A stretch of DNA of 60,789 nucleotides from a virus (Duplodnaviria > Caudoviricetes), in IMG/VR virus record IMGVR_UViG_3300033485_000012, positions 1 to 60,789 of that record. One strand, written 5' to 3'. The number at the start of each line of letters is the position of its first letter. The first letter of the stretch is position 1. This document shows, one piece after another, positions 1-51,955 of the stretch. A model generated the notes under the pieces. It saw only the letters and a list, made by a program, of their open reading frames with translations, was not told where the DNA came from and searched no databases. The translations under genes and the position numbers were made by a program.

Positions 1-474
1 AAGGTCTCTACAAATCAAGAGTCTTTGGACGCCGAACGCGACCGACCCAGCCGCCAAGCCATCCGTAACGGATGTGGCATTGACAAGAAGGCGGAAGGCG
101 TGGTACTCCGTCCGCTGAAGGAGCTCACCGATAACCGCGGCAATCGAATCATGTGCAAGCACAAGCGCGCAGATTTTTCCGAGCGCGCATCGAAGGCGGA
201 CACTGTAGCACCAGAAAAGGCCAAAATCCTCGCAGATGCACAAGCTATCGCAGAAGAGTGGGTGACGCCGATGCGCCTGGAGCATGTTGTCGACCACCTT
301 AAGGCCGAACTTCAGCGCGAACTGACAATGGCGGACCTCTCGACCTTAATCCAGGCCATGGTCGAAGATGTGTTTCGTGAGGGGGCCGGAGAAATCGTCG
401 AGAGCAAGGAGGCCCGCAAGGCTGTTGGTGCGAAGTGTGCTATATTGTTCCGACGTGGAGCTCAATCTGACTGA
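1..474 (+). CDS. RNA ligase (Rnl2-like), C-terminal part; likely begins before the window
   Basis: EGVVLRP...NRIMCKHK..F.E resembles nucleotidyltransferase motifs IV/V of Rnl2-family ligases. Confidence 0.6.
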   Translation, partial: KVSTNQESLDAERDRPSRQAIRNGCGIDKKAEGVVLRPLKELTDNRGNRIMCKHKRADFSERASKADTVAPEKAKILADAQAIAEEWVTPMRLEHVVDHLKAELQRELTMADLSTLIQAMVEDVFREGAGEIVESKEARKAVGAKCAILFRRGAQSD

Positions 475-664
475 ACAAGAAAAGGATTGGATGTCTAGGA
501 TGCCTTGGGAGTCGCTGGCGGTATGTGCCAAGTATGGCGTTAAAGAAACAGGCCGCTACGTGGCCGAACATCCGACACGTCCTCCGCGAATTAGGTTGTG
601 GATTCTGTCAGACTACATCAAAACTATGACATTGCCCGAGTTCTTGGAGGCTACAAATGGCTAA
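455..664 (+). CDS. Small protein with C-terminal 'MxLxEFL' box
   Basis: GTG start at 455 in the frame of ORF 368..664; ends PPRIRLWILSDYIKTMTLPEFLEATNG. Confidence 0.6.
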   Translation: MELNLTEQEKDWMSRMPWESLAVCAKYGVKETGRYVAEHPTRPPRIRLWILSDYIKTMTLPEFLEATNG

Positions 665-896
665 ACGTCAATGGAAAACATCCGTCACAATGTCGCGCGA
701 GATTGATTTAGGAGATGACTACCTCTTCAAACAAGTGATTGAGTCGGACGGCACGTCCGCGTTTTTGGGATCGATGGTGCTTTGGAGGGGCTGGCATACT
801 GCTTGGCTCAAAAATGTGCGAGGTGTTTCGTTGTTCGAAGTCAAGGTGATCGCAGAAGAGCACCTGAAGGAAGTTAGGTCGATGTATGCAGAGTAA
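657..896 (+). CDS. Hypothetical protein
   Basis: ATG with GGAGG SD, overlaps the upstream stop. Confidence 0.6.
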   Translation: MAKRQWKTSVTMSREIDLGDDYLFKQVIESDGTSAFLGSMVLWRGWHTAWLKNVRGVSLFEVKVIAEEHLKEVRSMYAE

Positions 897-916
897 CATT
901 CCAGCCGAGGCCATAC

Positions 917-1123
917 ATGGCAAAACATAAGTGGAAGAACTCTTGGCCAGGAAATTGCTGTCTTAAGTGTTGGGCGCCGGACCCGTTCGAAGACGACGAC
1001 GGGCTCGTCCCATGTCCGGATTGCGCCAACGCCCTAACCAACGGATGTAAGAAATGTTGTTACACGGGATGGGCTCCGAATCCGAGCAAATCGTACGATG
1101 AAGAGTGTCCGGTGGGACCGTGA
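917..1123 (+). CDS. Cys-rich (Zn-finger-like) small protein
   Basis: CxxC pairs; GAGG SD. Confidence 0.55.
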   Translation: MAKHKWKNSWPGNCCLKCWAPDPFEDDDGLVPCPDCANALTNGCKKCCYTGWAPNPSKSYDEECPVGP

Positions 1124-1389
1124 TCAAAAGATTCGCCGTGAGCAAGCCGGAGGTGACAATGTATTTTTACCAACCCACTCCGACTTGTCCGTATTGGACT
1201 TATAGTTATGAGTCGGGCACCACCACCGCCTCTCCCGATGAGGACGTGGCGTTCAAGCAGATCAACAAAATCCTCGGATGGCTCAATTGCGACCCGCCCA
1301 TTCCGGCCGTCAAAGCGTGGTTGACTTCAGAGTACAATCAGAGTATGACGCTGGAAGAGTTCTTGACTCAAACTGGAGTGTTGCAGTGA
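1120..1389 (+). CDS. Small protein with C-terminal 'MxLxEFL' box
   Basis: GTGA start/stop coupling; ends AVKAWLTSEYNQSMTLEEFLTQTGVLQ. Confidence 0.65.
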   Translation: MIKRFAVSKPEVTMYFYQPTPTCPYWTYSYESGTTTASPDEDVAFKQINKILGWLNCDPPIPAVKAWLTSEYNQSMTLEEFLTQTGVLQ

Positions 1390-1558
1390 ATACAGAATAT
1401 TGGGTCGCACTGCTGGTCGTGGTCGTCGGTGTGATTTTGGGCGAAATCAAGCGTAGATGTGACGCCGCCTACGAAGCCGAACGTGACCGGCGCAGAGATT
1501 GCCGCGGGTATACCGCGATTGATTATGTATTTGATGCCATTGAAAGGAAACGTCGTCC

Positions 1559-1933
1559 ATGTTCAAGATAGAACGAGACCTCGAGCTGGCATTGGATCCG
1601 CGCACCACATCCGAGGTTTTGGTGGGTTTATCCAAGAGTCGAGATGTTTACACCAGATTTAAGGTGGTGCAGCACCGCAATACACCACCGTGGGTGCTAG
1701 GGGCGATGTCTGCAGACAAGAACGCCGAAGTCAGGCAGGCTGTGGCGCGGGACCCGCGGACGGCGCCCGAAGCGCTGATGATTCTCGCAACCGACAAGAA
1801 CACCGATGTGCGGTGCGAGGTGGCGGGGAATCGGAACACACCATCCGCCGCGATCAGCCTGTTATTCAGAGATCAGAATAAGCGCGTCCGAGAGTCTGCG
1901 AAGCGATGGCTTTCACAACAAATCCCGTTCTAA
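1559..1933 (+). CDS. Leucine-rich-variant (LRV/HEAT-like) repeat protein
   Basis: Four to five ~24-aa repeats of the form VR.AVA.N.NTP..L..L..D. Confidence 0.75.
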   Translation: MFKIERDLELALDPRTTSEVLVGLSKSRDVYTRFKVVQHRNTPPWVLGAMSADKNAEVRQAVARDPRTAPEALMILATDKNTDVRCEVAGNRNTPSAAISLLFRDQNKRVRESAKRWLSQQIPF

Positions 1934-1934
1934 C

Positions 1935-2225
1935 ATGAAATACGCACCCATCAAGAAGGAGAAAATCACCCTCGCGGGGGTTCGGTATGAATTGTGTGAG
2001 TTATGCTCGTCGATCCCGCGCGACGGGCTTTACGCCATACAACTAAACGGCCTTGCGAACTCTTGGTGGAGGATGTCTGTGGATGGTCGGGTCATACGTA
2101 CAGATTCATGCCGGTCGATCCCGGAGGGATTCGAGGGCGCATGTCGAATGTGGATGGCCACGGACGAGGCATACGGTGGCATGACTTTGAAGGAGTTCTT
2201 GACATCTACGGGTGTTTTGGGGTAA
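1935..2225 (+). CDS. Paralog family protein with 'MxLxEFL' box
   Basis: Ends GACRMWMATDEAYGGMTLKEFLTSTGVLG. Confidence 0.7.
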   Translation: MKYAPIKKEKITLAGVRYELCELCSSIPRDGLYAIQLNGLANSWWRMSVDGRVIRTDSCRSIPEGFEGACRMWMATDEAYGGMTLKEFLTSTGVLG

Positions 2226-2420
2226 GGTGGCACACATGAAAGCTTCAGTGGCAGCGGCGCGACTGGCTGTACAGAATTGGCTTGACGCCAGACAGTATTA
2301 TCATTTGCCGCCACCGCACATCGAAATGTTGGTCCGCGAATTAGCGGAACATGACGGTCGACCGAGCAAAGTGACCGCAACGTTAGAGGACTGTCGCGAA
2401 GCCGCCCGTGGGAAGGCCGA

Positions 2421-2753
2421 ATGATGGCCCCCAAAACCTACAGCGGGCGCAACATGAGTATTTCGTACTTGAGCGTTACACGGACAGACACACTCGTCTT
2501 CGACGGGGTAAAATACTTCGCACAACACCTCAACGAAGAAACGGTCGGGAGTCGGCCGGTCAAGCTTTCGATTGAGCCCGTATACTATCCCGGCAACTAC
2601 AACTGGTGGAGTGTAGATCGACAAGGTCAGATAAATGCCAACAACCAACAAGTCCCACGTGTTCTAGCCGAAGGGTGCCGAATTTGGATGACGGGCTGTT
2701 ACCAAGATATGTCTTTGATAGAGTTCTTGACAAGCCTTGGTGTTTTGGGTTAG
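2421..2753 (+). CDS. Paralog family protein with 'MxLxEFL' box
   Basis: Ends EGCRIWMTGCYQDMSLIEFLTSLGVLG. Confidence 0.7.
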   Translation: MMAPKTYSGRNMSISYLSVTRTDTLVFDGVKYFAQHLNEETVGSRPVKLSIEPVYYPGNYNWWSVDRQGQINANNQQVPRVLAEGCRIWMTGCYQDMSLIEFLTSLGVLG

Positions 2754-2757
2754 AGCT

Positions 2758-3057
2758 ATGTATACATCGGACAGAATCGAATTCGAAGGTAAAGTCTACG
2801 AACTCAAATATCTACGATTGCCGTCTTGGTGCTCGAACCGCCCATCGCAACTGTCTATCCATCTACTAGACCCGATGCGCCCTTCTCGTCAACTTGGTTG
2901 GTGGAATGTAAACCGACAGGGAGAAATGTATTCTAGCTATACTCCCGCTGGCATCCCCGCCGGCCTTGCCGAAGGTTGTAAGATATGGATGATGACGGAG
3001 GATGGGTATAACATGCCTTTGATGGAATTCTTGACTAGCCTTGGTGTTGTGAGTTAG
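2758..3057 (+). CDS. Paralog family protein with 'MxLxEFL' box
   Basis: Ends EGCKIWMMTEDGYNMPLMEFLTSLGVVS. Confidence 0.7.
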   Translation: MYTSDRIEFEGKVYELKYLRLPSWCSNRPSQLSIHLLDPMRPSRQLGWWNVNRQGEMYSSYTPAGIPAGLAEGCKIWMMTEDGYNMPLMEFLTSLGVVS

Positions 3058-3067
3058 GGTGTAATCC

Positions 3068-3367
3068 ATGTCCAGTCATATTGTCATAGACGGCAACGAA
3101 TTCTCCCTAAAGGAGCACTACAAAATGTCTTGCAAAAACCCAGATCAACCCGCCATTTGTTTGTGTCCTCTTGAGGGCGCTGGCTACGGGGTACGCCAGG
3201 TACTCGCGAACAAGTTCATCAATGGATGGCTTGATGGCGGGTCGGTGCGGCTGGCTAACAGATTGGCAGCCGACGTGACAGCGTCAGAATTCCGTCTATG
3301 GGAGATGCTCTTCAACTTAGAAGAAGAGGCAAGTGGCGCCATGGAGATGTGGCGGTCGAGTTTGTAA
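3068..3367 (+). CDS. Divergent member of the same paralog array
   Basis: N-terminus I.IDG.EF.L resembles the neighbours; the C-terminal box is degenerate. Confidence 0.55.
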   Translation: MSSHIVIDGNEFSLKEHYKMSCKNPDQPAICLCPLEGAGYGVRQVLANKFINGWLDGGSVRLANRLAADVTASEFRLWEMLFNLEEEASGAMEMWRSSL

Positions 3368-3399
3368 TAGGTTTTCGGAAAATTTGAGCGGAGAGACTA

Positions 3400-3696
3400 A
3401 TGGAGCTCAAGGATCTGGGCTACGTCTTCTTGGCTGGTCGTGAATTTGTTCTATCCGAAGTCTACTCGTTGTCGGAGTCTAGAAGGGGTGAGCCGTGGGC
3501 CATACACTTACGCGCCGCTGAGAACACTCAGATGTGGTATCTAATGGAGGATAACGGTCGCGAACAGTACAGTCCACATGGAGATAAGGTCATTCCCTCA
3601 GGGTTTAAATCGGCATTGAAGATGTGGTGGGCGACAGACGGATATGGTGGTATATTTTTGATAGAGTTCTTGGCTAACCTTGATGTTATTGGTTAG
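3400..3696 (+). CDS. Paralog family protein with 'MxLxEFL' box
   Basis: GGAG SD; ends LKMWWATDGYGGIFLIEFLANLDVIG. Confidence 0.7.
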   Translation: MELKDLGYVFLAGREFVLSEVYSLSESRRGEPWAIHLRAAENTQMWYLMEDNGREQYSPHGDKVIPSGFKSALKMWWATDGYGGIFLIEFLANLDVIG

Positions 3697-3950
3697 AATT
3701 TTGTAAAATTTTTTGAGCACGCACTGGGACGCACTCTACTTTTGATACGCCCGGGTACGATGGGACCCTAAACCCCGTTTGACCCCCGGGAGGGTGGCGG
3801 GTACCCCGAGCTACCACCGGCATGCCTCTTGCACTACCACGAATCATGCCACGTACGCGCATGGATATTGCATAGAGCCACGCACAAGCCCTGTCATCCC
3901 CACCAAGACCCCTCTTGAGATCGGCGCCACCATCACCAAGGCGGACCGGG

Positions 3951-3986
3951 TTGACAACTCGTAGCGGCCCGTGTTATGTTTAAGGT
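3951..3986 (+). promoter_or_regulatory. Sigma70-type early promoter, leaderless (first of about 30 similar units)
   Basis: TTGACA-18-TATGTT, then ATG 6 nt later. Confidence 0.8.
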
Positions 3987-4256
3987 ATGAATACGATGCT
4001 TGAAGGGGTTGTCGCCAAGCTGACTCACCGCAACTGCGGTTATGGTGTGTGGGTGACTGACGTGGTTGCCCAACTTCAAGCAGAGGGATACGAAGTCAGC
4101 TTCTCGGAGTTCGCAGAGTGGGCCCTGGAAGCTCACCGGGCCGGTACCGTGACCCTTCGTAGGTGCGACTTGGTGGTTGGTCGCGACGCCTTCAAGCTCT
4201 CGGCCAGTGAAATCAAGGGGTTGGCGGGGTCGACGTTCCACACCATCGAGGCTTGA
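3987..4256 (+). CDS. Hypothetical protein (paralog of 29497..29796)
   Basis: Shared VWxxDV...WAxEAH...VTLRxCD...ASE...[FY]HTI. Confidence 0.75.
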   Translation: MNTMLEGVVAKLTHRNCGYGVWVTDVVAQLQAEGYEVSFSEFAEWALEAHRAGTVTLRRCDLVVGRDAFKLSASEIKGLAGSTFHTIEA

Positions 4257-4709
4257 CACGGTAAATCATCGAGGGTATATTTGTTGTGTAGGGTGGTTCA
4301 CAGGAGATTCACAATGCACTTCAACACCAAGCCCAGCTTCTTCACCCGCTTCGACAACATCTCCATCGCGGTCATCCTCGTGACGTTCCTCGCGCTCGCT
4401 TTCGCGAACTGCTGAAAGAGCTTGACAAACCCCACACCGCTACGTTACACTTGAGGTAGGAGAAACAAAATGCTCGCACTTGCAGCCTTCGTAGTCGGTC
4501 TCTCGGTGGTCGGTGGTTTCGGCACTCTCGCAGCGCTCGCGTTCAAGTGGAGCTGAGATGTCCCCTCAAGAATTCGTCATCGGCTTCGTGGTTGTGTTGT
4601 TTTTCGCCGATTGGCTTGTTAGTATCTGGCGCGATTAGCACCCCCACCAAGCCCAGCATCGGCGAAGCAGTCGACCCGAACGATCTCACGGAAGACGAGA
4701 GGTGGTGAC

Positions 4710-5348
4710 CTAGGGGCGATTCCCTTGGTATTGAAAAAGGTGTAGACCGGATTCCGCTAGCGTTCGGACGACCTCCAACTCCTCCCGTCGTAGGTCTTCG
4801 ACGCTAGAGGTCAGGGGAAGAGTCTTGAGCGGCTCTATGGTCAGAGCGGACAAGTCCCCTCTGAATATGAGGGCCGAGATCATGTCAGACGGTCTTGCGC
4901 CCCGTCTAGGCCTGTTGTTTCGCTTTGCCTCTGATTTGCTAACCGCCTTACTAACATGCCCTGCCAATCGCACAGAAAGGGGCCTTATGGTCGAACCTAC
5001 GTAGAAGGGCCAGCCACACACCGACAGGCAATAAATGGTGCGGCCGTCTCTGAGCCAGTGATCTCTAGGAGTGGGCGTCATCACCCTTTTAGGCGGGGAC
5101 TTGATTCGGGTTAATCCATTCATTCTGTTCTTAGTTGAGCGAAAAACGGTACGCTTTTGCTTCCGACCGCGCTTCATTACGCTTAGAATGGAGTGAACTT
5201 CATCTCCGTTATCCAAAACAGACGGCTTGTTTCTCGGAGTCAAACACTCCAAGCACGTCACCATGGGCGGAACCACCACCCTGCACCCACACTGGAGACA
5301 AAGATTCTTGAGAGCTTTAGAGGCATATCTACTTGCAAAATTGGTCAT
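4710..5348 (-). CDS. GIY-YIG-like endonuclease
   Basis: TIYCL...FYVGST.R.L..RL..H...REE motif; TATAAT 5 nt before the ATG. Confidence 0.6.
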   Translation of the reverse strand: MTNFASRYASKALKNLCLQCGCRVVVPPMVTCLECLTPRNKPSVLDNGDEVHSILSVMKRGRKQKRTVFRSTKNRMNGLTRIKSPPKRVMTPTPRDHWLRDGRTIYCLSVCGWPFYVGSTIRPLSVRLAGHVSKAVSKSEAKRNNRPRRGARPSDMISALIFRGDLSALTIEPLKTLPLTSSVEDLRREELEVVRTLAESGLHLFQYQGNRP

Positions 5349-5893
5349 GCCGTATTATACCATATGGGGGTCGACTTTCGACATTCGGTGTGTAGGGATT
5401 GCGTAACTCTTCGAATTCGTTCGAGTGAGACTCGTGACCACACGTGAAAATGGGGTCGTTTCGGGACCTAGCGGAACAGCGCGCGCCAAGAAGTCGAAAA
5501 CGTAACCTCGCGGAATTACATAGTCGCTCAACCGTGTGTTGTACAGACCCTAAAGGACTCCATATGACTGAACTAGTTGTCGAAATCAGCCTGGCATTTG
5601 TCCGGTCGGCTCTGCTTGCAAGCTTCGTGAGCTTTGTGTTATTGCTCGTCGGGAACTTCTACTCTGTTTTGAGGGACATGTGAAAGTTGGCTCAATCGTA
5701 GCCATCAAGGAAAACGGAGATCTCGGGGTTGTAGTGCAGCTCAGCAGTAAGAACCCGGATTGTCTGTGGATTCGATGGGCTACCAACCCAGAACCTATTT
5801 GGTGGGATTGCTTTTACCGTAGCGAACTCACACGGTTGCCCGGGTCGGTTCTTTAGTCTTGACGCGGTAAATCCACGCTGTTATACTTGGAGT

Positions 5894-6130
5894 ATGACCA
5901 TGCAGCTCACCAAAGTCGTCACAACGTCTTACAGCACTTCCGAAGTCAACCCCGCCCATAAGGTGTCTACCGATACGGTATACATGTTGTGCGGCCACAA
6001 ACTCTCCCGTCGAGACCTGGAAGCACTCTACAAAGACATCGGGGTTGCCCTGAACGGTTCTCCGACGGCAAAGGAGCCAATTCCAACCGAGTTCTACGGC
6101 GAATACATGGCCCGCCAGGGGAAGTTCTAA
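5894..6130 (+). CDS. Hypothetical early protein
   Basis: Own promoter: TTGACG(5859)..TATACT, leaderless. Confidence 0.7.
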   Translation: MTMQLTKVVTTSYSTSEVNPAHKVSTDTVYMLCGHKLSRRDLEALYKDIGVALNGSPTAKEPIPTEFYGEYMARQGKF

Positions 6131-7521: not shown

Positions 7522-7551
7522 CTTCTTTCGGCGGGGTTGTTAGATTTGAAC

Positions 7552-8310
7552 ATGAGCTCTCTCGTCTTGGTGTTGATGGCCAGCCTCCCATCTTCCTTCT
7601 CTTGGTGTGGTGCAAGTGACGGTGGCTACTCGCAGTGCACGCCAGTCAAAGACCAAGGACCGTGTGGTGGATGTTGGGCTTACGCTACCGCGGCTGTAGT
7701 TGAAAACCTCATCTTCTTGGCAGACTCTTCGAACGTGCCTGACGTGTCAGAGAAGCACCTTCTCGAGAACAATCCATGGGGTTGGAGTTGCGAACTCGGA
7801 GGTGGTAGGGCGTTCGACATGTACGTTGATGGAGGTGTGGTTCTCGAAGACGGCTTGGAAGTCGATGTCCACGTTGCCAGGTGGGCAAGTCTCGGGGTGG
7901 CGCCAACGGTCGAAGCCATCAAAGCCGCCATCTTTGAGCGCGGTCCGGTATGGAGCGCCGTGTATGCAGACAGAGCCTTCCAGAATTACGACGGTGGGGT
8001 TTTCCGTGGAACTCGAACCACGGTTCAACACGCGGTCGTGCTCGTCGGTTGGGACGACAACGATGGCGACGGGTATTGGATTCTGAGGAACTCTCGCGGC
8101 CCGACTTGGGGTGACCAGGGCTACATGAAAATCGCCTACGGGGCGAACGCAGTGGGCTTCTGGGCGACTTGGGTCGAGCTGGAGCATGAAGGTCTGACCC
8201 CTGCAACAGGATGCGCTACCAGTCCGGGCGGACTGTTGGCGGTCATCGGACTCCTCGGGCTTCTACTTCGAAGGGCTTGCGCTCGCGATTCGGCGGGTGT
8301 AGTCTATTAA
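7552..8310 (+). CDS. Papain-like cysteine peptidase (C1A) with MYXO-CTERM-like anchor
   Basis: DQGPCGGCWAY (Gln/Cys), HAVVLVGW (His), WILRNS (Asn); ends GCATSPGGLLAVIGLLGLLLRR. Confidence 0.9.
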   Translation: MSSLVLVLMASLPSSFSWCGASDGGYSQCTPVKDQGPCGGCWAYATAAVVENLIFLADSSNVPDVSEKHLLENNPWGWSCELGGGRAFDMYVDGGVVLEDGLEVDVHVARWASLGVAPTVEAIKAAIFERGPVWSAVYADRAFQNYDGGVFRGTRTTVQHAVVLVGWDDNDGDGYWILRNSRGPTWGDQGYMKIAYGANAVGFWATWVELEHEGLTPATGCATSPGGLLAVIGLLGLLLRRACARDSAGVVY

Positions 8311-9300: not shown

Positions 9301-10116
9301 ATGAAAATCAAGAACGGTTTTGGAGTTGAGATGGAAGTTGGACCTGGCGCTTACTTGGGTGGCGCTCACTTGCGTGGCGCTAACTTGGGTGGCGCTCACT
9401 TACGTGGCGCTCACTTGCGTGGCGCTCACTTGCGTGGCGCTAACTTGCGTGGCGCTGACTTGGGTGGCGCTCACTTGCGTGGCGCTGACTTGAGTGACGC
9501 TAACTTGAGTGACGCTAACTTGAGTGACGCTAACTTGAGTGACGCTAACTTGCGTGGCGCTGACTTGCATTACGCTCACTTGAGTGACGCTAACTTGCGT
9601 GGCGCTAACTTGAGTGACGCTAACTTGCGTGGCGCTCACTTAGGTTACGCTAACTTGAGTGGCGCTAACTTGCGTGGCGCTAACTTGCATTACGCTAACT
9701 TAAGTGACGCTAACTTGCGTGGCGCTAACTTGCGTGACGCTAACTTGCGTGACGCTAACTTGCATGGCGCTGACTTGCATGGCGCTGACTTCCCCGAATT
9801 CCAGATCACGCCTCCACACTGGCCCTTTACGGCCTACAAGAAAGTGCAAGGTGCGGTGTTGGAACTCCGTGTCGTGGGACGTCGAACGTCAAGTTTGGTT
9901 GGACGTAAGTGTCGGTGCGACAATGCGCTTGTGGTCAAGGCCTACCCACTCGGACCTGACAATACTTCGACTGAGTTCGGTTCCACGTACGACCCGAACT
10001 TCAAATACCGAGTAGGTGAAATGGTGTCGGAACCGACATACTCCGATGACATTCGGACCGAGTGTGCGCCTGGCATTCACTTCTTCATGACACGTGAAGA
10101 GGCCGAGAATTACTGA
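9301..10116 (+). CDS. Pentapeptide-repeat protein with conserved C-terminal domain (CAPGIHFF)
   Basis: About 30 A[HND]L[RSG][GDY] repeats encoded by a 15-bp tandem repeat. Confidence 0.9.
   Translation: MKIKNGFGVEMEVGPGAYLGGAHLRGANLGGAHLRGAHLRGAHLRGANLRGADLGGAHLRGADLSDANLSDANLSDANLSDANLRGADLHYAHLSDANLRGANLSDANLRGAHLGYANLSGANLRGANLHYANLSDANLRGANLRDANLRDANLHGADLHGADFPEFQITPPHWPFTAYKKVQGAVLELRVVGRRTSSLVGRKCRCDNALVVKAYPLGPDNTSTEFGSTYDPNFKYRVGEMVSEPTYSDDIRTECAPGIHFFMTREEAENY
9346..9792 (+). repeat. 15-bp coding tandem repeat (GGCGCTAACTTGCGT-like)
   Basis: Visible directly in the sequence. Confidence 0.95.
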
Positions 10117-43649: not shown

Positions 43650-44042
43650 ATGACCAACAACGACCGCCTACACAAACTTTACGTCGAAATCCGTGACCTC
43701 GCCGTCATCATGGACCCGTCTCAAGTGGACAACTTCACCGCCAACGTGCGGTTGATGGCCGGAGAAAACCTCTCACCTCAGGCTTGGGTGGATGGAGCCA
43801 AAGCGGCATTGGAATATATCGAGCGTCAGATTTTTGAGTCCGACACGGGGTGGATTACTACAATCAACCGCAGATGCTACCTTCAACAGACCCGGTCCGT
43901 GGTATTCCGGGAGGGTGTTACTTTTGGGGCCCGATCGGCTTTTTTTTGTTACGAACGCCTGATTTGGGACGGCCAAGAGTTTCGAGCCGAGGGCGGCTTA
44001 ACTAGCTTTCGAATGTTCCGTGCTATCGACTCGGGAGACTGA
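43650..44042 (+). CDS. Hypothetical early protein ending AIDSGD
   Basis: Promoter TTGCAA(43615), ATG at +35. Confidence 0.65.
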   Translation: MTNNDRLHKLYVEIRDLAVIMDPSQVDNFTANVRLMAGENLSPQAWVDGAKAALEYIERQIFESDTGWITTINRRCYLQQTRSVVFREGVTFGARSAFFCYERLIWDGQEFRAEGGLTSFRMFRAIDSGD

Positions 44043-44043
44043 C

Positions 44044-44355
44044 GTGAGTTCCGCAAAAGGTGGGTATCGTTCCAGTGGCGACGTTTTTGCCCTAGCGAAC
44101 TATGAAGACGCGTCTGGTGCCGATTTGGAGACTCTCTCCACCGACAGAAGCGAGCACGTTCGTTGGGCTGTGGCCAACAACCGCAACACATGGGCGTCAA
44201 CCTTAACTTACCTTGCCGAAGACAAAAGCGAAACGGTGTGGGCTGAAGTCGCTCGAAATTCAAATACTCCACCTGCTGTCAGACTTTGGCTCAAAACTCG
44301 CTTTCAGGGAATGACTCTAGAGGACTTCTTGGAAGCGATTGACTCAGGAACTTGA
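44044..44355 (+). CDS. LRV-repeat protein with 'MxLxEFL' box
   Basis: VRWAVANNRNT...NTPPAVRLWLKTRFQGMTLEDFLEAIDSGT. Confidence 0.75.
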   Translation: MSSAKGGYRSSGDVFALANYEDASGADLETLSTDRSEHVRWAVANNRNTWASTLTYLAEDKSETVWAEVARNSNTPPAVRLWLKTRFQGMTLEDFLEAIDSGT

Positions 44356-44357
44356 AG

Positions 44358-44651
44358 ATGAGCTCCCAACGATATCAAGACTATCTTAAGGCCGATTCCG
44401 CCGACACCATCGAGTCGGAATTGGATGTATTATCCACCCATCCCAACCCAGACGTGCGATGAGGTGTAGCGAGCAACCCAAATACGCCTAGAAGCACTCT
44501 AGCGTATATGGCTTTGGATGCGAACCCCACCGTTCAATGGGCCGTCGAGCGCAACCCCCACACCCCACCAGCGGTGAAGCTGTGGCTGCAAACTGGATAT
44601 GGTGAGATGTCACTCGAAGAATTCCTTAAAGCTGTTGACTCGGGAGACTGA
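44358..44651 (+). pseudogene. LRV-repeat/'MxLxEFL' paralog with an in-frame TGA at 44460
   Basis: ...PDVR*GVASNPNT...PPAVKLWLQTGYGEMSLEEFLKAVDSGD; the stop aligns with a Trp in the paralog. Confidence 0.75.
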
Positions 44652-44652
44652 C

Positions 44653-44889
44653 GTGAACCACCCATCCGTGATGGAACCTTTCATCAAAACATACGACTTA
44701 CTCTCCGAGGCCGAGTCCGAAGTCGACCCAGCGCAGTTGACTTCTCTAGCGACATGTCGCAGCTACGTTATCCGACAGGCCGTCTTCGACAACCCGAACA
44801 CTCCTCCGGCCGTGAGGTTGTGGTTGCGGATCGGGTATGGCGAAATGTCTTTGCAAGATTTCCTTAAAGCTGTTGACTCCGGGACCTAA
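44653..44889 (+). CDS. LRV-repeat protein with 'MxLxEFL' box
   Basis: NTPPAVRLWLRIGYGEMSLQDFLKAVDSGT. Confidence 0.75.
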   Translation: MNHPSVMEPFIKTYDLLSEAESEVDPAQLTSLATCRSYVIRQAVFDNPNTPPAVRLWLRIGYGEMSLQDFLKAVDSGT

Positions 44890-45710: not shown

Positions 45711-46082
45711 ATGGATATCAACATCAAGAGCAAGTTCAATGTAGGCGACAAGGTGAAGTCGAAGTACTACAACTTGGAAGGGACCGTCACGTCGATCCGA
45801 ACTGTCGTTTCCTATACGGCGGCATGGAGCGACAACACCTACGGAACGATATTTGAAGACCATCTAGAGACGGTCAAGTTGGTCACCCCAAAATTCAAGG
45901 TCGGAGATCTGGTGGTTCTAAAAAACACCGAAAAGATGGCAGGGCGCGAATTCGGAGAAATCATCTGTCATAAAGATACAATGTGGGGGATTATGCTGAC
46001 TCCAGCTATATATCGATACATCTACAACGAGTCCGACATGCTGCCATACACTCCGACCTCACCCCACTACTTCCAGGATTGA
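45711..46082 (+). CDS. Tandem SH3/KOW-like protein ending SPHYFQD
   Basis: Two KF.VGD.V modules. Confidence 0.7.
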   Translation: MDINIKSKFNVGDKVKSKYYNLEGTVTSIRTVVSYTAAWSDNTYGTIFEDHLETVKLVTPKFKVGDLVVLKNTEKMAGREFGEIICHKDTMWGIMLTPAIYRYIYNESDMLPYTPTSPHYFQD

Positions 46083-46084
46083 CC

Positions 46085-46480
46085 ATGAACATCCCAGACT
46101 TTTTTCCGGTTGGCTCTCTTGTAATAGATATTCACTATCCAGAATTCCCGTACGAGGTCCGAGCCGTAGACATCCGCGTGACAGAAAAGGGCGCAACCGT
46201 GCTGTACTGCTTGCTGGAGGCGAGGTGCGATAAAGACACGCCATACGAGTTTTGTCGCACACTGTACTCGGGTGACATTGCGCCTTACGTAAAGTTCAAG
46301 GTGGGCGATCAAGTCGTCCACCACCGAGGCGGGGATGTAGGAGTGGTGACGCAGATCCCATCCGGATTCGCACCCAGTCGCCTGTACACCGTGCGACATG
46401 CCGCTAGCCGGTGCGCCTACTATTACGAGGGCGAGCTTCGAGGCGTCGCTAGCACTTCACCCCATGACTGCCAGGACTAA
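46085..46480 (+). CDS. Tandem SH3/KOW-like protein ending SPHDCQD
   Basis: FPVG..V and KFKVGD.V modules. Confidence 0.7.
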   Translation: MNIPDFFPVGSLVIDIHYPEFPYEVRAVDIRVTEKGATVLYCLLEARCDKDTPYEFCRTLYSGDIAPYVKFKVGDQVVHHRGGDVGVVTQIPSGFAPSRLYTVRHAASRCAYYYEGELRGVASTSPHDCQD

Positions 46481-46882
46481 ACATGCACACTCCACAATAT
46501 TTCCCAATCGGAACTCTCGTAGTCGAAGCTGGCTATCCAGACCGACCACTAGAGGTTAGGGGGATTGACATCAATATGACGCGAGCCGGCACGAGAATCT
46601 ACTACTCCTTAGGTAGTCCGCATCACTACATCTACCTGCCAGCAAAAGATGTAGAACTATACCGAGAGCGAGATTGACATGCACCAGACTACAATCGACC
46701 ACAAATTCAGTGCCGGAGAGCGTGTGGTTGTTCCAACAAAATACGAGCCGCCAGACAAGGGTGAAGTTGGAGATATTACAGTCCACCTACGGAGCAGTGG
46801 CCGCTGCCAAGTATTCTACATGGTCACCCTTGACGACGGCCGAAAACACCCCTACGAAGAGTCTCAACTTAAGCCGGAGTGA

Positions 46883-47757: not shown

Positions 47758-48144
47758 ATGACCACTGAAATCCAATTTCAGGAATGGCCTAAATGTTCTA
47801 AGTGTGGACATGCCAACCTCAAAATTGCCGGTCATGTCTGGCTTCTTGGCTCCGACCACGCTGAGATCTGCGAATATTTGACGTTTCGAGGCGTCACGGC
47901 GCGTCAAATAGGGTGGGCTTCTATTAAGGCCGAACACCCGCGGTACGTTCAGGTGGTGTTTGATTTATGCAAGATCGAATACCGATCGTTTGCGGTGTCG
48001 TCGATCGCCGGCAACTACGTGGAAGTGTTCGCTCCCATTAAAGTCGCGGCGCTGGTAAAAATGTATTACTCCGACAAGTCGCCTTATGGCGGAATAGACT
48101 TAGGTGAATTCCTGAAGAGTGCAGGGTGCGGCAGTGGAACCTGA
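47758..48144 (+). CDS. Zn-finger protein with variant 'MxLxEFL' box
   Basis: PKC.KCG..H.EICEY; ends YYSDKSPYGGIDLGEFLKSAG. Confidence 0.7.
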   Translation: MTTEIQFQEWPKCSKCGHANLKIAGHVWLLGSDHAEICEYLTFRGVTARQIGWASIKAEHPRYVQVVFDLCKIEYRSFAVSSIAGNYVEVFAPIKVAALVKMYYSDKSPYGGIDLGEFLKSAGCGSGT

Positions 48145-48508
48145 ACACTATTTCGTGTCGTACCCCAAATGCCCTAAGTGCGGGAAGGACAATAAGAGGT
48201 TTCACGGCTTCGAACACGTAGAAATCTGTGAATACTTCTTGTTCAGGGACGTTACGGCGCCACAAATTAAGTGGCTGCCTTTAACAAGGAGACAGCAAAT
48301 CAAGTGTATTAAAGCGGCCTTTGATATGCTCCACATCGAACATCGCTGCTTTAAGATGCGGTCTAATTCTGGGTGGGCATTGTACTTGTTCGCACCAAAG
48401 ACTACAGTAGATTTGGTGAATTTGTACTACTCCGACAAGTCGCCTTATGGGGAAATGTCCTTGTCGGAGTTTTTGGGCGCTACGTTAGGTGTTACGGGAG
48501 GGTCGTAG
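48134..48508 (+). CDS. Zn-finger protein with 'MxLxEFL' box (tandem paralog)
   Basis: PKCPKCG..H.EICEY; ends YYSDKSPYGEMSLSEFLGATLG. Confidence 0.7.
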   Translation: MEPEHYFVSYPKCPKCGKDNKRFHGFEHVEICEYFLFRDVTAPQIKWLPLTRRQQIKCIKAAFDMLHIEHRCFKMRSNSGWALYLFAPKTTVDLVNLYYSDKSPYGEMSLSEFLGATLGVTGGS

Positions 48509-48968: not shown

Positions 48969-49030
48969 TATCCTACTCCTTGCCGGTATGCCGGCGGAAA
49001 GTTTCTATGGACAAGATTGGTGCTGCGTGT

Positions 49031-49206
49031 GTTGATGCTCCAAAGGACGACACCTTTGAATTCCTGCTTCGATGCTGGCAACATCACCAGCTCCACAGGC
49101 TTGAATTCCCGTGCATCCCACGGTATTTGCGATTTGGTGGGTACGAGTCTGATTCTGTGGGCGACGATCATGGGATTAGTATACCACGTTGTTGTGAAAT
49201 CGTAAA
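49031..49206 (-). mobile_element. Internally deleted tnpB element: promoter, 15 N-terminal codons and omega-RNA-like scaffold (copy 2)
   Basis: TTTACG-17-TATACT, ATG MIVAHRIRLVPTKSQ (TnpB N-terminus-like), then the scaffold ending TCAAC. Confidence 0.65.
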
Positions 49207-49212
49207 CCCCAA

Positions 49213-49356
49213 CGCGACGCCCGCAAAAGCGAACAGTGCACCCAAGCCGGGATCCAACTTTTGAGGATCCCCGAAGCCGAATACGAATCCAACCCCACTG
49301 GAACTATCGCCAAAATTATCCGGTGGCTTGACACTCCACCCCAGCCCATGCCATAA
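49213..49356 (+). pseudogene. 3' remnant of a 52698..53903-like endonuclease
   Basis: RKSEQCTQAGIQLLRIPEAEYESNPTGTIAKIIRWL versus RKNEQCVQTGIQLLRIPEAEYETDPPGTIVKVLAWL. Confidence 0.8.
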
Positions 49357-49749
49357 GTAGCCCCAAGGAGAAATACCACATGTGCATCGAAACATTGCAA
49401 GCCCTTTTGGAGACCGCTGAACTGCGAGCAGACTTGGCCGAAGGTAAAATCAAAGCCCTTCGCATGAAGGTGGCGGTATCATTGGAAGTCGTCGAGAATC
49501 TAAAGGATCAGATCCGGCTGCTCGAGGCCGAACTCGCTGACGTACGCGAGCTCGTGCCGGTGGACCACGTAGACGAGCCCTGTGCGCTTCACAATACGGA
49601 AGGGTGCTGCCACGTGGAATGTATCGCGGCCGAGCAAACATCTGATGTCCAGGGACGGAGTGTCGGCGAAGAAACCTACAGTCAGCTCTGCGAGCGGTTC
49701 AAGAGGCAGTGGGACGTGTGCATCAAGCAAGCCAAAACGGAGAACTAAC

Positions 49750-50844
49750 ATGGACTTCCCTACACTATACAAGAAGACGGCCACTGGTGCCTTGCAGTAC
49801 TGGCGCATCTACACTGAAAACAGCACTGTCGTGACCGAATGGAGTCAAATCGACGGAGCGGCCCAGGTGACTACAGACACCATCACCAAAGGCAAAAACA
49901 TCGGACGGTCTAACGAGACCACCGCCACCCAACAGGCTGACGCCGAAGCGCTGTCTCAATGGGAGAAGAAACTCAAGAAGGGGTACTGCAAGACCTTGCA
50001 GGAGGCTATCGCCGGCAAGGTCGACGAGTGTGTTGCTGGCGGTGTATTCCCCATGTTGGCCCACAAGTACTCCGAAAAAGCCGGCAAGATCCAGTGGCCG
50101 GCGTACGCCCAACCCAAGTTCGACGGACATAGGTGTATTGGTGTAGTCGAAAATGGCAAGGCTTCGCTTTGGAGCCGGACGCGCAAGCCGATTACAGGGC
50201 TGCCGCACATCGTTGCCGCTCTGGAAAAACTCGGAGTGGATTGTGTGGTAGATGGTGAACTTTACAATCATGATTACCGACACAACTTCGAGGAGCTGAC
50301 GAGCTTCATCCGCAACGCCAACCCCAAACCGGGCCACGAAGTCGTGCAGTACCACATCTATGACGTCGTCATGGACGGATCGTTCGATACACGCCACAAG
50401 TTTATCCGGTCGCTCAACTTGACTCTCCCTCTGGTGCCGGTAGAGACTGTCGTATCGATGGACGAAGACGCACTCATGTTGGAGTTCGAGAGATTCCTCT
50501 CGTTGGGTTACGAAGGTTGTATGGTTCGTAACATGCAAGGGCCATACGTCAACAAGCGATCGGCAGATTTGCTCAAGGTCAAGGAGTTCGATTCCAGCGA
50601 GTTCAAGGTGGTTGGGATCGAAGAGGGACGTGGTAAGTTGGCTGGACACGCGATTTTTGTGTGCGACGCCAATGGCACTCAATTCCGCACCAAGATGAAA
50701 GGCGAAACGTCGCGCCTCAAAGAATACTTCGAGAACCCCACGTCGGTCATCGGACGGATGTTGGAGGTGAAGTATCAAGGCCTGACGAACAAGGCTGGCG
50801 TACCGCGCTTTCCGGTTGCACTCCGCTTTCGAGATGACGTATAA
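49750..50844 (+). CDS. ATP-dependent DNA ligase
   Basis: QPKFDGHR (motif I), DGELY, YEGCMVR, Y..KRS.DLLKVK, PRFP. Confidence 0.93.
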   Translation: MDFPTLYKKTATGALQYWRIYTENSTVVTEWSQIDGAAQVTTDTITKGKNIGRSNETTATQQADAEALSQWEKKLKKGYCKTLQEAIAGKVDECVAGGVFPMLAHKYSEKAGKIQWPAYAQPKFDGHRCIGVVENGKASLWSRTRKPITGLPHIVAALEKLGVDCVVDGELYNHDYRHNFEELTSFIRNANPKPGHEVVQYHIYDVVMDGSFDTRHKFIRSLNLTLPLVPVETVVSMDEDALMLEFERFLSLGYEGCMVRNMQGPYVNKRSADLLKVKEFDSSEFKVVGIEEGRGKLAGHAIFVCDANGTQFRTKMKGETSRLKEYFENPTSVIGRMLEVKYQGLTNKAGVPRFPVALRFRDDV

Positions 50845-50852
50845 GGACCACC

Positions 50853-51716
50853 ATGAATTGCTCAGATTTACACAAATCCGTCATGATTAAATCACTTCCA
50901 CCCCACAAGTCCGAGAATTGGTCGTTGTATCAAGGCGATTCGATTGGCATTCTCGACACCTTCAAGCCTCAAATTTTCGACATGGTATTCGTCGACCCGC
51001 CGTACTTCCTTTCGAACGGTGGATCCACGTGCCAGTCCGGGAAGCGGGTATCGGTCAATAAGGGCGATTGGGATGCCAGCAAGGGGGTCGACGCCGATCG
51101 CACCTTTGTGACATCTTGGCTGAAGGCCTGCCAACGCGTGCTGAAGCCCTCAGGAACGATCTGGGTGACCGGTACACAACACATCATCTTCAACATTGGA
51201 TTTGCTATGCAACAGCTGGGCTACAAGCTGCTCAATACTGTTACTTGGTACAAGCCCAATGCCAGTCCGAATTTGGCGTGTCGGTACTTCACCCACTCAA
51301 CCGAGATTATCGTTTGGGCGTCACCTGGCGAAAGCAAGCCTCTGAAGCACACCTTCAACTACCAGGATATGAAGGCCGTCAACGGTGGCAAGCAGATGCG
51401 TGACGTGTGGACGTTCCCTCGCACAGGTGAAGAAGAGATCTCCGACGATGGAGAGGGTCGCATGTGGAGTTTGACGGCCCCCAAGCCGGCCGAGAAGAAG
51501 TTCGGCAAGCACCCCACTCAGAAGCCCTTAGCGTTGCTCGAGCGCATTATCGCAGCCAGCACTACTGAAAACGCCCTGGTGCTCGACCCGTTCTGCGGTA
51601 GTGGCACGACCGGAGTTGCGGCGGTAGCCCAAGGGCGGCGTTTCATTGGAATTGATTCCGATCCTGACTGTATCTCGCTTACACAGAAGCGGCTGGAATT
51701 TAGCACATCACCATGA
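50853..51716 (+). CDS. DNA amino-methyltransferase, beta class (DpnA/M2.DpnII-like)
   Basis: DPPY, SVNKG.WD, HPTQKP, LDPFCGSGTTG. Confidence 0.9.
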   Translation: MNCSDLHKSVMIKSLPPHKSENWSLYQGDSIGILDTFKPQIFDMVFVDPPYFLSNGGSTCQSGKRVSVNKGDWDASKGVDADRTFVTSWLKACQRVLKPSGTIWVTGTQHIIFNIGFAMQQLGYKLLNTVTWYKPNASPNLACRYFTHSTEIIVWASPGESKPLKHTFNYQDMKAVNGGKQMRDVWTFPRTGEEEISDDGEGRMWSLTAPKPAEKKFGKHPTQKPLALLERIIAASTTENALVLDPFCGSGTTGVAAVAQGRRFIGIDSDPDCISLTQKRLEFSTSP

Positions 51717-51955
51717 TTACCTTAAAGCCGTTTTGCGAGCCGACCCAGAAGGAATATTTATCGATACCAACCGAACGGCTCGAGCAGATAGCTTCAGATC
51801 CACGACCGCTAATGCGAGGGTTCATCGAACGACATCCCAACACGCCACCACTCGTGAGGTTGTGGTTGAAGACGTACAGAGAAAGTGGTATGACTCTTCA
51901 GGAATTTTTGGAGGCAACACATGAAAAAGTCCGAGTTGCAGAAAGAGCTGAATGA
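51713..51955 (+). CDS. Single-LRV protein with 'MxLxEFL' box
   Basis: HPNTPPLVRLWLKTYRESGMTLQEFLEAT. Confidence 0.7.
   Translation: MITLKPFCEPTQKEYLSIPTERLEQIASDPRPLMRGFIERHPNTPPLVRLWLKTYRESGMTLQEFLEATHEKVRVAERAE

What the first reader, a model, noticed from the sequence alone, without database searches (positions are those of the whole stretch)
455..51955. About 12 different small proteins share a C-terminal 'W...Y..M[ST]LxEFL' box: candidate modular adaptor/tagging system
Seen: the ORFs at 455, 1120, 1935, 2421, 2758, 3400, 44044, 44358 (pseudogene), 44653, 47758, 48134 and 51713 all carry, at or near the C-terminus, [RK]-x-[WY]-x(3-7)-[YF]-x(1-4)-M-[ST]-L-x-[ED]-F-L, with a few substitutions. 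Examples: RLWILSDYIKTMTLPEFLEATNG, KAWLTSEYNQSMTLEEFLTQTG, KLWLQTGYGEMSLEEFLKAVDSG. The N-termini fall into at least four unrelated classes: LRV/HEAT repeats, a beta-rich WW-containing domain, a CxxC Zn-finger domain, and unique domains. They sit in four loci spread over 51 kb. Inference: a constant docking helix fused to variable target-binding domains, like F-box/SOCS-box architecture, could recruit diverse host targets (e.g. defence proteins) to one effector. A protease route is conceivable because the phage encodes SspB. Alternatively the box is a capsid-packaging or localisation signal. I do not recognise it as a described family.
Basis: partly seen in the sequence, partly recalled or inferred. 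Interest (0 to 1): 0.88.

Follow-up and report, generated by a model that had tools for sequence, protein, structure and literature searches.

The report
Shared C-terminal cap on many phage proteins
A large phage carries some 22 small genes whose proteins all end in the same 30-residue two-helix cap, usually on helical-repeat proteins but also on unrelated domains, which suggests a shared docking tag whose partner is unknown.

Summary
A regex and a profile HMM find exactly 12 boxes in the window. All are on the + strand and lie 5-14 residues from a stop. Shuffles give 0.12. Half of the identical residues use different codons, so selection acts on the protein.

The box is a proline-started helix, a Tyr/Gly loop, and a short helix with a capping box (M-[ST]-L-x-E-F-L). 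In the LRV-repeat class it continues the repeat period in register, so there it is a specialised last repeat, not a foreign helix. The same unit also ends a beta-rich class, a Zn-ribbon class and a unique class. These N-termini are unrelated by profile comparison.

The window joins a 103-kb record into one genome of about 164 kb, with 22 box genes. Among 1.84 billion proteins, only 68 small proteins carry the box, always at the C-terminus. A lower-GC relative has dense arrays of box genes. Its boxes share lineage-specific residues across N-terminal classes.

My best reading (0.45) is a common docking cap that tethers variable domains to one unknown partner. No partner was identified, and the SspB route is untested.

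The parts
428..664 (+). Looks like one degenerate LRV-like repeat plus the box ...RIRLWILSDYIKTMTLPEFLEATNG.
   Evidence: The LRV-like reading of the N-terminus is my reading of the sequence; Pfam found nothing.
1120..1389 (+). Box gene, class D (unique N-terminus); homologue P0046.
1559..1933 (+). LRV-repeat protein WITHOUT the box (ends ...AKRWLSQQIPF). The only clear LRV protein of the genome that lacks it.
   Evidence: Pfam LRV 55.6 bits; not hit by the box HMM
1935..2225 (+). Box gene, class B (five-stranded beta N-domain plus box), P0003.
   Evidence: AF2 model with pLDDT 86
2421..2753 (+). Box gene, class B paralog.
2758..3057 (+). Box gene, class B paralog.
3068..3367 (+). Class B paralog with a decayed box (...EFRLWEMLFNLEEEASGAMEMWRSSL). 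Its relative P0041 keeps an intact box.
   Evidence: not hit by the box HMM
3400..3696 (+). Box gene, class B paralog.
44044..44355 (+). Box gene, class A (LRV repeats plus box), P0009.
   Evidence: Pfam LRV 27 bits; AF2 pLDDT 89.7
44358..44651 (+). Class A box gene broken by an in-frame TGA at codon 35, where relatives have W. The residual ORF 44508-44651 (47 aa, P0005) keeps the box.
44653..44889 (+). Box gene, class A (78 aa, P0001).
47758..48144 (+). Box gene, class C (CxxC...HxxxC Zn-ribbon-like N-domain plus box with Y in place of W), P0074.
48134..48508 (+). Box gene, class C paralog, P0015.
51713..51955 (+). Box gene (80 aa, P0008): one LRV-like repeat plus box plus a 14-residue tail.
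   Evidence: weak LRV_2 match, E 4e-4, 20.7 bits, below the 27-bit cut-off

Best explanation
The box is a helix-loop-helix unit of about 30 residues.

- Helix 1 starts at a proline and ends in [VC]-[KR]-[LMI]-W-[LM].
- A 6-9-residue loop follows, with a conserved Tyr/Gly.
- Helix 2 opens with a hydrophobic staple and capping box (M-[ST]-L-x-[ED]-F-L).
- It is followed by only 4-21 residues.

The unit is the specialised last repeat (C-cap) of a family of LRV/HEAT-like repeat proteins seen here only in one group of phages. The family has expanded to about 22 genes in this ~164-kb myovirus. The cap also sits on at least three unrelated N-terminal domains: beta-rich, Zn-ribbon and unique here, and HTH elsewhere.

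Shown: the anatomy, the protein-level selection, the modularity, the strict C-terminal position, the restriction to one phage group, and lineage-specific box residues shared by different N-terminal classes.

Inferred: the cap is a common docking surface. It would tether many variable binding domains to one shared, still unknown partner, either a host machine or a phage assembly. The family would then be a set of interchangeable adaptors made early in infection.
For: - Presence: 12 of 12 boxes confirmed, far above chance, with 50% synonymous codon differences at identical residues.
- Class A structure: the AF2 model (pLDDT 89.7, pTM 0.80) has helices at 11-19, 25-31, 37-45, 51-57, 63-71, 77-85 and 92-100. 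The two box helices therefore keep the 26-residue LRV period.
- Fold matches for class A: the best is 1lrv (Z 8.1, rmsd 6.9, 90 aligned). HEAT-like alphaRep chains align through residue 103 (Z 7.3-7.7).
- Unrelated N-termini: hhalign probability <= 1.9% between classes, against 96-98% for controls.
- Class B structure: the model (pLDDT 86) has five strands followed by the same helix-turn-helix.
- Distribution: 71 of 1.84e9 representatives reach E <= 1e-3. Of these, 68 are small proteins of 43-235 aa with the box 4-21 residues from the end. LRV_2 is found in 40 of the 68 and LRV in 30 of the 68.
- Copy number: 22 copies in the joined genome. G001 has 7 (6 with the broader profile) and G007 has 2.
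- Lineage 2: 23 box ORFs in 33.5 kb of contigs. They include 4 with non-LRV N-termini, two of them with Cys motifs like class C.
- Lineage signature: the loop ends in [YF]AG in 21 of 23 lineage-2 boxes against 0 of 30 in lineage 1. LAEF occurs in 16 of 23 against 1 of 30. Two of the 4 non-LRV boxes in lineage 2 carry [YF]AG. The G-Y-A-G codons vary synonymously.
Against: - No partner was found or tested successfully.
- Nearly every conserved box residue can be explained by folding alone: the helix N-caps, the hydrophobic staple and a buried W/Y/M/L/F/L core.
- Both AF2 models place the box in a compact single unit (pTM 0.76 and 0.80). It may simply be part of each fold.
- In ortholog pairs with G001 the box is only moderately better kept than the N-terminus (54-85% against 32-59%).
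- In lineage 2 the codons CTT GCA GAA TTT are rather uniform (15-18 of 20). Some gene conversion, rather than partner co-evolution, could therefore explain part of the lineage signature.
- The fold-search Z values are middling for helical repeats.
Confidence: 0.45

Rival explanations
1. Structural cap only. The box is a very stable folding nucleus or solenoid end-cap that shields the hydrophobic core of small, fast-evolving proteins. It was reused by recombination because it folds well. There is no shared partner.
For: - The conserved residues fit a capping box, a hydrophobic staple and a buried core (sequence; established helix-capping rules, recalled).
- The box is in register with the LRV repeats.
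- Monomer models are compact and confident.
- The PDB matches are repeat proteins.
Against: - Lineage-specific loop residues ([YF]AG) are shared by LRV and non-LRV boxes of one lineage, although their codons differ.
- The same cap is kept on a beta sheet, a Zn ribbon and a solenoid, which offer different packing surfaces.
- The cap is the best-conserved part of the family (consensus).
Confidence: 0.22
2. Virion targeting signal. The box binds the inside of the procapsid, the scaffold or the portal. The small proteins are packaged and ejected with the DNA as ready-made effectors, as T4 internal proteins and P1 Dar proteins are.
For: - The tag is constant and terminal on many small, mostly helical proteins.
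- One array (44044-44889) lies directly beside the virion module on the other strand.
- This is a special case of the docking reading.
Against: - The genes lie on the strand and in the blocks that hold small accessory and DNA-metabolism genes, not among virion genes.
- The known capsid-targeting sequence of T4 is N-terminal and is cleaved off (recalled).
- No proteomic data exist.
Confidence: 0.1
3. Self-association. Unpaired helix-loop-helix boxes pair with each other, as single EF-hands do, and give homo- and heterodimers among the 22 proteins.
For: - The box has helix-loop-helix anatomy.
- The weak, non-significant PDB profile hits include an EF-hand protein (E 0.25).
Against: - Promiscuous pairing of 22 paralogs has no obvious use.
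- Monomer models already bury the box.
- The Ca-ligand positions 1, 3 and 5 of an EF-hand loop are L, T and Y (sequence).
Confidence: 0.08
4. Protease route. The box is recognised by the phage SspB homologue or by host ClpX, so that bound host targets are delivered for degradation.
For: - The phage encodes an SspB homologue at 28813-29250 (PF04386, 32.3 bits, above the cut-off).
- That protein ends in ...HLRLLKN. This resembles the ClpX-binding tail of E. coli SspB, which I recall and did not test.
Against: - The box is a folded hairpin, not an extended peptide.
- The last residues after the box are variable (GVLG, DSGT, NG, EATK) and do not look like a ClpX degron.
- No test was run.
Confidence: 0.04
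5. DNA-level feature. The shared 3' ends are kept alike by gene conversion or act as recombination sites, and the protein motif is a by-product.
For: - The genes stand in tandem arrays.
- In lineage 2 four core codons are rather uniform.
Against: - In the window, mean nucleotide identity of the core is 67%, and half of the identical residues use different codons.
- Leu uses six codons at one column.
- The G, Y and A codons of the lineage-2 signature vary.
- The box persists across lineages with 40-54% GC.
Confidence: 0.03

Closest known systems
LRV (leucine-rich repeat variant) / HEAT-like alpha-solenoid repeats: Pfam PF01816 and PF25591, PDB 1lrv, designed alphaRep proteins
   Same: - Class A proteins match LRV and LRV_2.
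- The box helices keep the repeat period.
- The best structural matches are 1lrv (Z 8.1, rmsd 6.9, 90 aligned) and alphaRep chains (Z 7.3-7.7).
- The box starts at the usual N-P-N-T-P-P repeat boundary.
   Different: - The second half of the box (loop plus M-[ST]-L-x-E-F-L helix) is not covered by either Pfam model. LRV_2 alignments stop at profile position 46-50 of 61.
- Box-only peptides hit LRV_2 in 1 of 12 cases, at E 0.1.
- The unit also occurs alone on non-repeat domains.
- It is far better conserved than the repeats before it.
Poxvirus ankyrin-repeat proteins with a C-terminal PRANC / F-box-like domain (search listing and abstract starts of PMC4353913 and PMC9414399)
   Same: - The architecture and genome biology match. 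A large DNA virus carries a multigene family of helical-repeat proteins.
- The repeats are variable and a short constant C-terminal helical box follows.
- In poxviruses the box docks the family to one host machine, which makes the proteins substrate adaptors.
   Different: - There is no sequence relation. No Pfam F-box or PRANC hit appeared.
- Bacteria have no SCF ligase.
- Here the box is a modified repeat of the same solenoid and also sits on beta and Zn domains.
- No partner is known.
EF-hand helix-loop-helix
   Same: - Both have an aromatic residue before a loop of about 12 residues, Gly at loop position 6, a hydrophobic residue at 8, Ser/Thr at 9 and Glu at 12 followed by Phe. The numbering is recalled.
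- The weak PDB profile hits are to an EF-hand protein.
   Different: - The hit is not significant (E 0.25).
- Loop positions 1, 3 and 5 are L/I, T/S and Y/R rather than Asp/Asn.
- The loop length varies: 47 of the 67 regex matches have one residue more than the 14 with EF-hand-like spacing.
- No Pfam EF-hand hit appeared.
SspB-type adaptor tails (the ClpX-binding peptide at the C-terminus of SspB; recalled)
   Same: Both are C-terminal constant elements that could tether a variable binding domain to one machine. The phage has its own SspB.
   Different: The SspB tail is a short extended peptide after a flexible linker. The box is a folded hairpin with no linker and a variable extreme C-terminus.

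Membership tests
LRV / LRV_2 repeat proteins (PF01816, PF25591): whole class A proteins | Pfam model match above the curated cut-off | tested here: met
   - 44020-44355: LRV 27 bits against a cut-off of 21.6.
- 1559-1933: LRV 55.6 bits.
- Of the 68 family members, LRV_2 is found in 40 and LRV in 30 at E <= 0.01.
- 44599-44889 and 51713-51955 reach only sub-threshold LRV_2 scores (17.9 and 20.7 bits against 27).
LRV / LRV_2 repeat: the box itself as a repeat | Sequence match of the box to the repeat model | tested here: not met
   - Box-only peptides: 1 of 12 hits LRV_2, at E 0.1, and none hits LRV.
- In whole proteins the LRV_2 alignment ends at the W helix, at profile position 46-50 of 61.
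LRV / HEAT-like solenoid: the box as a structural repeat | Helix pair in register with the preceding repeats and superposable on solved repeat proteins | tested here: met
   - The AF2 helices keep the 26-residue period.
- alphaRep chains align over model residues 8-103 (Z 7.3-7.7). 1lrv aligns over 1-97 (Z 8.1, rmsd 6.9, 90 aligned).
- Z values of this size are common for helical repeats, so this test is supportive only.
EF-hand | 12-residue loop with Asp/Asn/Ser ligands at positions 1, 3 and 5 and Glu at 12; Pfam EF-hand match | tested here: not met
   - Positions 1, 3 and 5 are hydrophobic, Thr or Tyr (sequences).
- No Pfam EF-hand hit at E <= 10.
- PDB profile hit E 0.25.
F-box / PRANC | Pfam F-box or PRANC match | tested here: not met
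   Neither family appears in the Pfam scans of the 10 window proteins (E <= 1), of the 68 members (E <= 0.01) or of the 12 box peptides (E <= 10).
XRE/Cro-type helix-turn-helix | Three-helix core with a recognition helix after the G-[VI]-[ST] turn | tested here: not met
   - The proteins end 4-8 residues after the second helix in most cases.
- The only hit is a non-significant Cro match at E 0.71.
- No Pfam HTH hit on the boxes.
ClpX-binding tail of SspB-type adaptors | Binding of the C-terminal element to the ClpX N-domain | not tested

The most novel reading that the evidence does not exclude
The box is a universal docking tag of a phage adaptor system. About 22 proteins per genome each carry a different binding domain (LRV solenoids of 1-8 repeats, a beta domain, a Zn ribbon, an HTH). 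All plug through the same C-terminal cap into one hub. The hub could be a host machine such as a protease, RNA polymerase or the ribosome, or the phage procapsid for packaging and ejection. This would be a bacterial-virus counterpart of the poxvirus ankyrin/PRANC family. The lineage-specific [YF]AG and LAEF residues would record co-evolution with that hub.
Probability: 0.3. Interest if true: 0.85.

Novelty: new variant of a known kind. Interest (0 to 1): 0.58.

Why it matters
Phage early regions are full of small orphan proteins whose logic is unknown. Here about 22 of them in one genome, and dozens more in relatives, share one strictly terminal, strongly conserved module on otherwise unrelated domains.

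If the module is a docking tag, finding its one partner would assign a mode of action to a whole multigene family at once. It would also give a portable tag for recruiting proteins to that partner.

If it is only a fold-stabilising cap, it is still useful. It would be a natural 30-residue C-cap that works on solenoid, beta and zinc scaffolds, which is of interest for repeat-protein design.

The box has no Pfam or PHROG model. A profile built here (alignment A1 and the 68-member set) would annotate these genes.

Tried and rejected
- Self-association: complex prediction with two copies of the class A protein P0009 (alignment A5) gave no verdict. The scores were 0.15 and 0.11 against a mark of 0.42, and the controls were not run. 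This counts neither for nor against binding.
- Fold of the class B protein: Foldseek against PDB gave nothing at E <= 0.001; the best was Ivy at E 0.12 and TM 0.45. VIA-align over 48,161 chains gave a best Z of 5.3 (Ivy, rmsd 3.1, 85 aligned) and 5.2 (an integron cassette protein). The ESM Atlas also gave only weak structural rows, again with Ivy first at TM 0.56, under its bar. I name no fold.
- PDB sequence profile of the box: 4 hits at E 0.25-1.2, none significant.
- PHROGs: nothing for the 10 box proteins at E <= 0.1 except two chance-level rows.
- Known phages: blastn of window 1-6000 found nothing. One virion-module protein (38089-40032) is 31% identical to a hypothetical protein of Myxococcus phage Mx1. 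Mx1 has no box at E <= 1.
- More distant relatives: G002-G005, G008 and G009, reached through that virion-module protein, show no box. Most of them are fragments.
- Cellular genomes: the scan with two box patterns from alignment A4 matched 37 stretches, and none was a relative. This tests only those exact patterns.
- IMG/VR: the scan with lineage-2 patterns (A7) found nothing.
- Word-index searches for N-domains without the box returned only the query for class C and only close relatives for class B.
- Literature: searches found no description of such a family. Only listings were seen. Subscription journals and supplementary files were not searched.
- Ideas dropped:
  - A T7SS-like WxG/YxxxD signal, because the spacing does not fit.
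  - An encapsulin or microcompartment targeting peptide, because there is no linker and the box is a folded hairpin.
  - TGA read as Trp in the broken gene, because TGA ends many ordinary genes here.
- Idea not tested: trans-capping of the box-less LRV protein 1559-1933 by box proteins.
- Wording: in my notes I first called 38089-40032 'portal-like'. No family match supports that, and I do not use the name.
- Alignment artefact: in A1 the first residue of two rows (48025 and 48386) is shown as M, because the tool reads a first GTG or TTG codon as a start. The true residues are V and L, in an unconserved flank.

Full report
**1. The observation**

The six-frame translation of the 60,789-base window holds 9 matches to M[ST]L.[ED]FL and 12 to the slightly looser form. 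Every one is on the + strand, and every one lies 5-14 residues before a stop codon. In 200 dinucleotide-preserving shuffles the means were 0.025 and 0.12 matches, and the maxima 1 and 2.

A profile HMM built from the 12 finds the same 12 at E <= 8.4e-12. The next hit is at E = 1.2, so the window holds no hidden weaker copies.

In the seven-codon core the mean nucleotide identity is 67%. Half of the identical non-Met/Trp residues are written with different codons, and Leu at one column uses six codons. The conservation is therefore in the protein, not the DNA.

Three details need correcting.
- 44358-44651 carries an in-frame TGA at codon 35, at a position where relatives have Trp.
- 3068-3367 is a further paralog of the beta-rich class whose box has decayed, while its relative P0041 keeps an intact one.
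- 1559-1933 is an LRV protein that lacks the box.

**2. Anatomy of the box**

The alignment shows a unit of about 30 residues. It has a proline, then a helix ending in [VC]-[KR]-[LMI]-W-[LM]. A loop of 6-9 residues with Tyr/Gly follows. Then comes M-[ST]-L-x-[ED]-F-L-x-A and a short variable tail.

By the established rules of helix capping, which I recall and did not compute, M-[ST]-L-x-E-F reads as a hydrophobic staple plus capping box. That accounts for the sharpness of the motif.

AlphaFold2 on the class A protein 44044-44355, with 34 relatives, gave pLDDT 89.7 and pTM 0.80. The helices lie at 11-19, 25-31, 37-45, 51-57, 63-71, 77-85 and 92-100. The two box helices (77-85 and 92-100) continue the 26-residue alternation of the LRV repeats.

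The best structural matches are the LRV protein 1lrv (Z 8.1, rmsd 6.9, 90 aligned, model 1-97) and designed HEAT-like alphaRep proteins, which align through residue 103 (Z 7.3-7.7). Such Z values are ordinary for helical repeats, so I use them only together with the Pfam LRV matches.

Pfam LRV_2 alignments stop at the W helix, at profile position 46-50 of 61. Box-only peptides match LRV_2 in 1 of 12 cases, at E 0.1. In the repeat class, then, the box is a specialised terminal repeat. Its second half is not described by any Pfam or PHROG model or by any PDB sequence.

**3. The N-termini really differ**

With the box removed, profile-profile comparison between the four classes gives probabilities of 0.1-1.9%. 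Split-half controls within class B and class A give 98.3% and 95.8%. The classes are:
- A: LRV repeats (44044, 44358 broken, 44653). I also place 428/455 and 51713 here as apparent single degenerate repeats. 51713 has only a sub-threshold LRV_2 match, and 455 rests on my reading of the sequence.
- B: 1935, 2421, 2758 and 3400, with 3068 decayed.
- C: 47758 and 48134.
- D: 1120.

The class B model (pLDDT 86, pTM 0.76) is a five-stranded sheet followed by helices 64-75, 79-82 and 85-92, which is the same helix-turn-helix. It has no convincing fold match.

**4. The window is part of a larger genome**

Window bases 1-220 equal bases 220-1 of IMG/VR record G006 (102,957 bases) at 99.5% identity. 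A third record, G001, bridges the far end of G006 to the far end of the window. Together they describe one circular or permuted genome of about 164 kb. This agrees with CheckV's 32% completeness for the window and with a 164,168-base contig that holds the window's proteins.

A broader box profile finds 12 copies in the window and 10 in G006, which makes 22 in the genome. It finds 6 in the 37.9-kb G001 and 2 in G007. The first profile had found 7 in G001, including the Zn-ribbon gene.

Nearly all Pfam LRV hits of G006 lie inside box ORFs; only one weak hit, in a 1111-residue ORF, lies outside.

The phage is a myovirus, with a tail sheath at 53955-56480 and a baseplate protein at 23385-25832. 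The box genes lie in + strand blocks of small genes.

**5. Distribution**

HMMER read all 1.84 billion representatives. It found 71 at E <= 1e-3. Three are long internal-repeat proteins (P0013, P0060, P0066) and are not family members. The other 68 are proteins of 43-235 residues with the box 4-21 residues from the C-terminus. No large protein and no internal box was found.

Pfam finds LRV_2 in 40 of the 68 and LRV in 30 of the 68. One member carries a resolvase-type HTH before the box.

A scan of 185,579 species genomes with two box patterns gave no relative; this covers those exact patterns only. Mx1 and the more distant relatives G002-G005, G008 and G009 show no box.

A lower-GC lineage (metagenome contigs L049-L054, 40-48% GC) shares other genes with this phage at 45-64% amino-acid identity. 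It holds 23 box ORFs in 33.5 kb, in dense same-strand arrays. They include four with non-LRV N-termini, two of them with Cys motifs like class C.

**6. A signature of common constraint**

In lineage 2 the loop ends in [YF]AG in 21 of 23 boxes, and the helix reads L-A-E-F in 16 of 23. In lineage 1 (window, G006, G001, G007) the counts are 0 of 30 and 1 of 30.

Two of the four non-LRV boxes of lineage 2 carry [YF]AG. One of them is a Cys-motif protein that also keeps the class C peculiarities (Y in place of W, Asp at the cap position). The codons of G-Y-A-G vary synonymously, with 3-4 codons per column. The four codons CTT GCA GAA TTT are more uniform, at 15-18 of 20.

Boxes on different scaffolds have therefore drifted together within a lineage. 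This is what co-evolution with one partner predicts. Gene conversion may contribute.

**7. Mechanism**

Shown: a strictly terminal helix-loop-helix cap under protein-level selection. It derives from, or is equivalent to, the last LRV repeat. It is shared by unrelated domains, expanded to about 22 genes per genome, and confined to one phage group.

Inferred (confidence 0.45): the cap is a common docking surface that tethers variable binding domains to one partner.

Rivals:
- Structural cap only (0.22).
- Virion packaging signal (0.10).
- Box-box pairing (0.08).
- SspB/ClpX route (0.04).
- DNA-level by-product (0.03).

The one complex job, on self-association of a class A protein, gave no verdict and counts for nothing.

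In ortholog pairs the box is only moderately better conserved than the N-terminus (54-85% against 32-59%). This tempers the docking reading.

**8. Comparison with what is known**

By membership, class A proteins are LRV/HEAT-like repeat proteins. The box as a unit belongs to no described family.

By architecture, the nearest analogue is the poxvirus ankyrin/PRANC (F-box-like) multigene family. Its constant C-terminal box docks variable repeat proteins to one host machine (search listing and abstract starts only, PMC4353913 and PMC9414399). No sequence relation exists.

The resemblances to EF-hands and to the first two helices of Cro-type HTH motifs are not significant, and their defining features are not met.

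Four literature searches found no description of this family. Only listings were read, and supplements and subscription journals were not covered.

I therefore could not see earlier notes or the sources of the family members.

**9. Verdict**

I rate the finding a new variant of a known kind: an LRV-type terminal repeat turned into a portable, family-wide C-terminal module. I score interest at 0.58, because the pattern is unusual and testable but the function is still open.

Noticed in passing
window 1-220 and 59616-60789; G006 (L040-L045); G001 (L022, L023): The window and IMG/VR record IMGVR_UViG_3300033485_000003 overlap by 220 bases at 99.5% identity. A third record bridges their other ends. 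The two are pieces of one circular or permuted genome of about 164 kb. The bridging record has about 4 kb more than the two ends account for.
   Followed up: partly
window 44358-44651: An LRV-plus-box gene is broken by an in-frame TGA at codon 35, where relatives have Trp. The cause could be a nonsense mutation, a sequencing error or read-through. The 47-aa remnant still carries a complete box.
   Followed up: partly
window 28813-29250: A phage SspB homologue (PF04386, 32.3 bits). Its last residues, ...HLRLLKN, resemble the ClpX-binding tail that I recall for E. coli SspB. The phage may tap the host ClpXP.
   Followed up: no
window 33549-34592 (- strand): A TnpB / IS605 OrfB-like gene (Cas12f1-like TNB domain) sits inside the virion-gene block. 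It is conserved at 61-85% amino-acid identity in G001, G007 and the metagenome contig L054.
   Followed up: no
window 45711-46882: Four adjacent small + strand ORFs share a repeated F-[KP]-[VI]-G-[DST]-x-V motif (45711, 45983, 46483, 46679). This looks like a second small paralog family of short beta domains.
   Followed up: no
window 52698-53903: A protein with four DUF4379 treble-clef zinc fingers and a weak, below-cut-off match to an REase_MTES_1575-like C-terminus. It stands next to box genes here and also in G006, G007 and G001.
   Followed up: no
window 7537-8310 and 9301-10116: A papain-family cysteine protease (PF00112, 111.7 bits) and a pentapeptide-repeat protein with DUF5758 (204 bits). 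Both lie among the small + strand genes.
   Followed up: no
window 56509-57378 (- strand): A homing-endonuclease-like gene (phrog_314) directly beside the tail sheath gene.
   Followed up: no
window 917-1123: A 68-residue ORF with 10 cysteines (...CCLKCW...CPDC...CKKCCY...) inside the first box-gene array. It has no box.
   Followed up: no
window 1559-1933: The only clear LRV protein without the box. It ends ...AKRWLSQQIPF, which resembles the first box helix cut short. It sits in the middle of the class B array and could be an acceptor for caps supplied in trans.
   Followed up: no
P0060 (369 aa) and P0066 (436 aa), from the representative search: Unrelated long proteins with internal tandem repeats containing ...GMPLDEFLQSATEG... 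or ...HQMTLEEFLPLANR.... The M-x-L-x-E-F-L helix start recurs outside this family.
   Followed up: no
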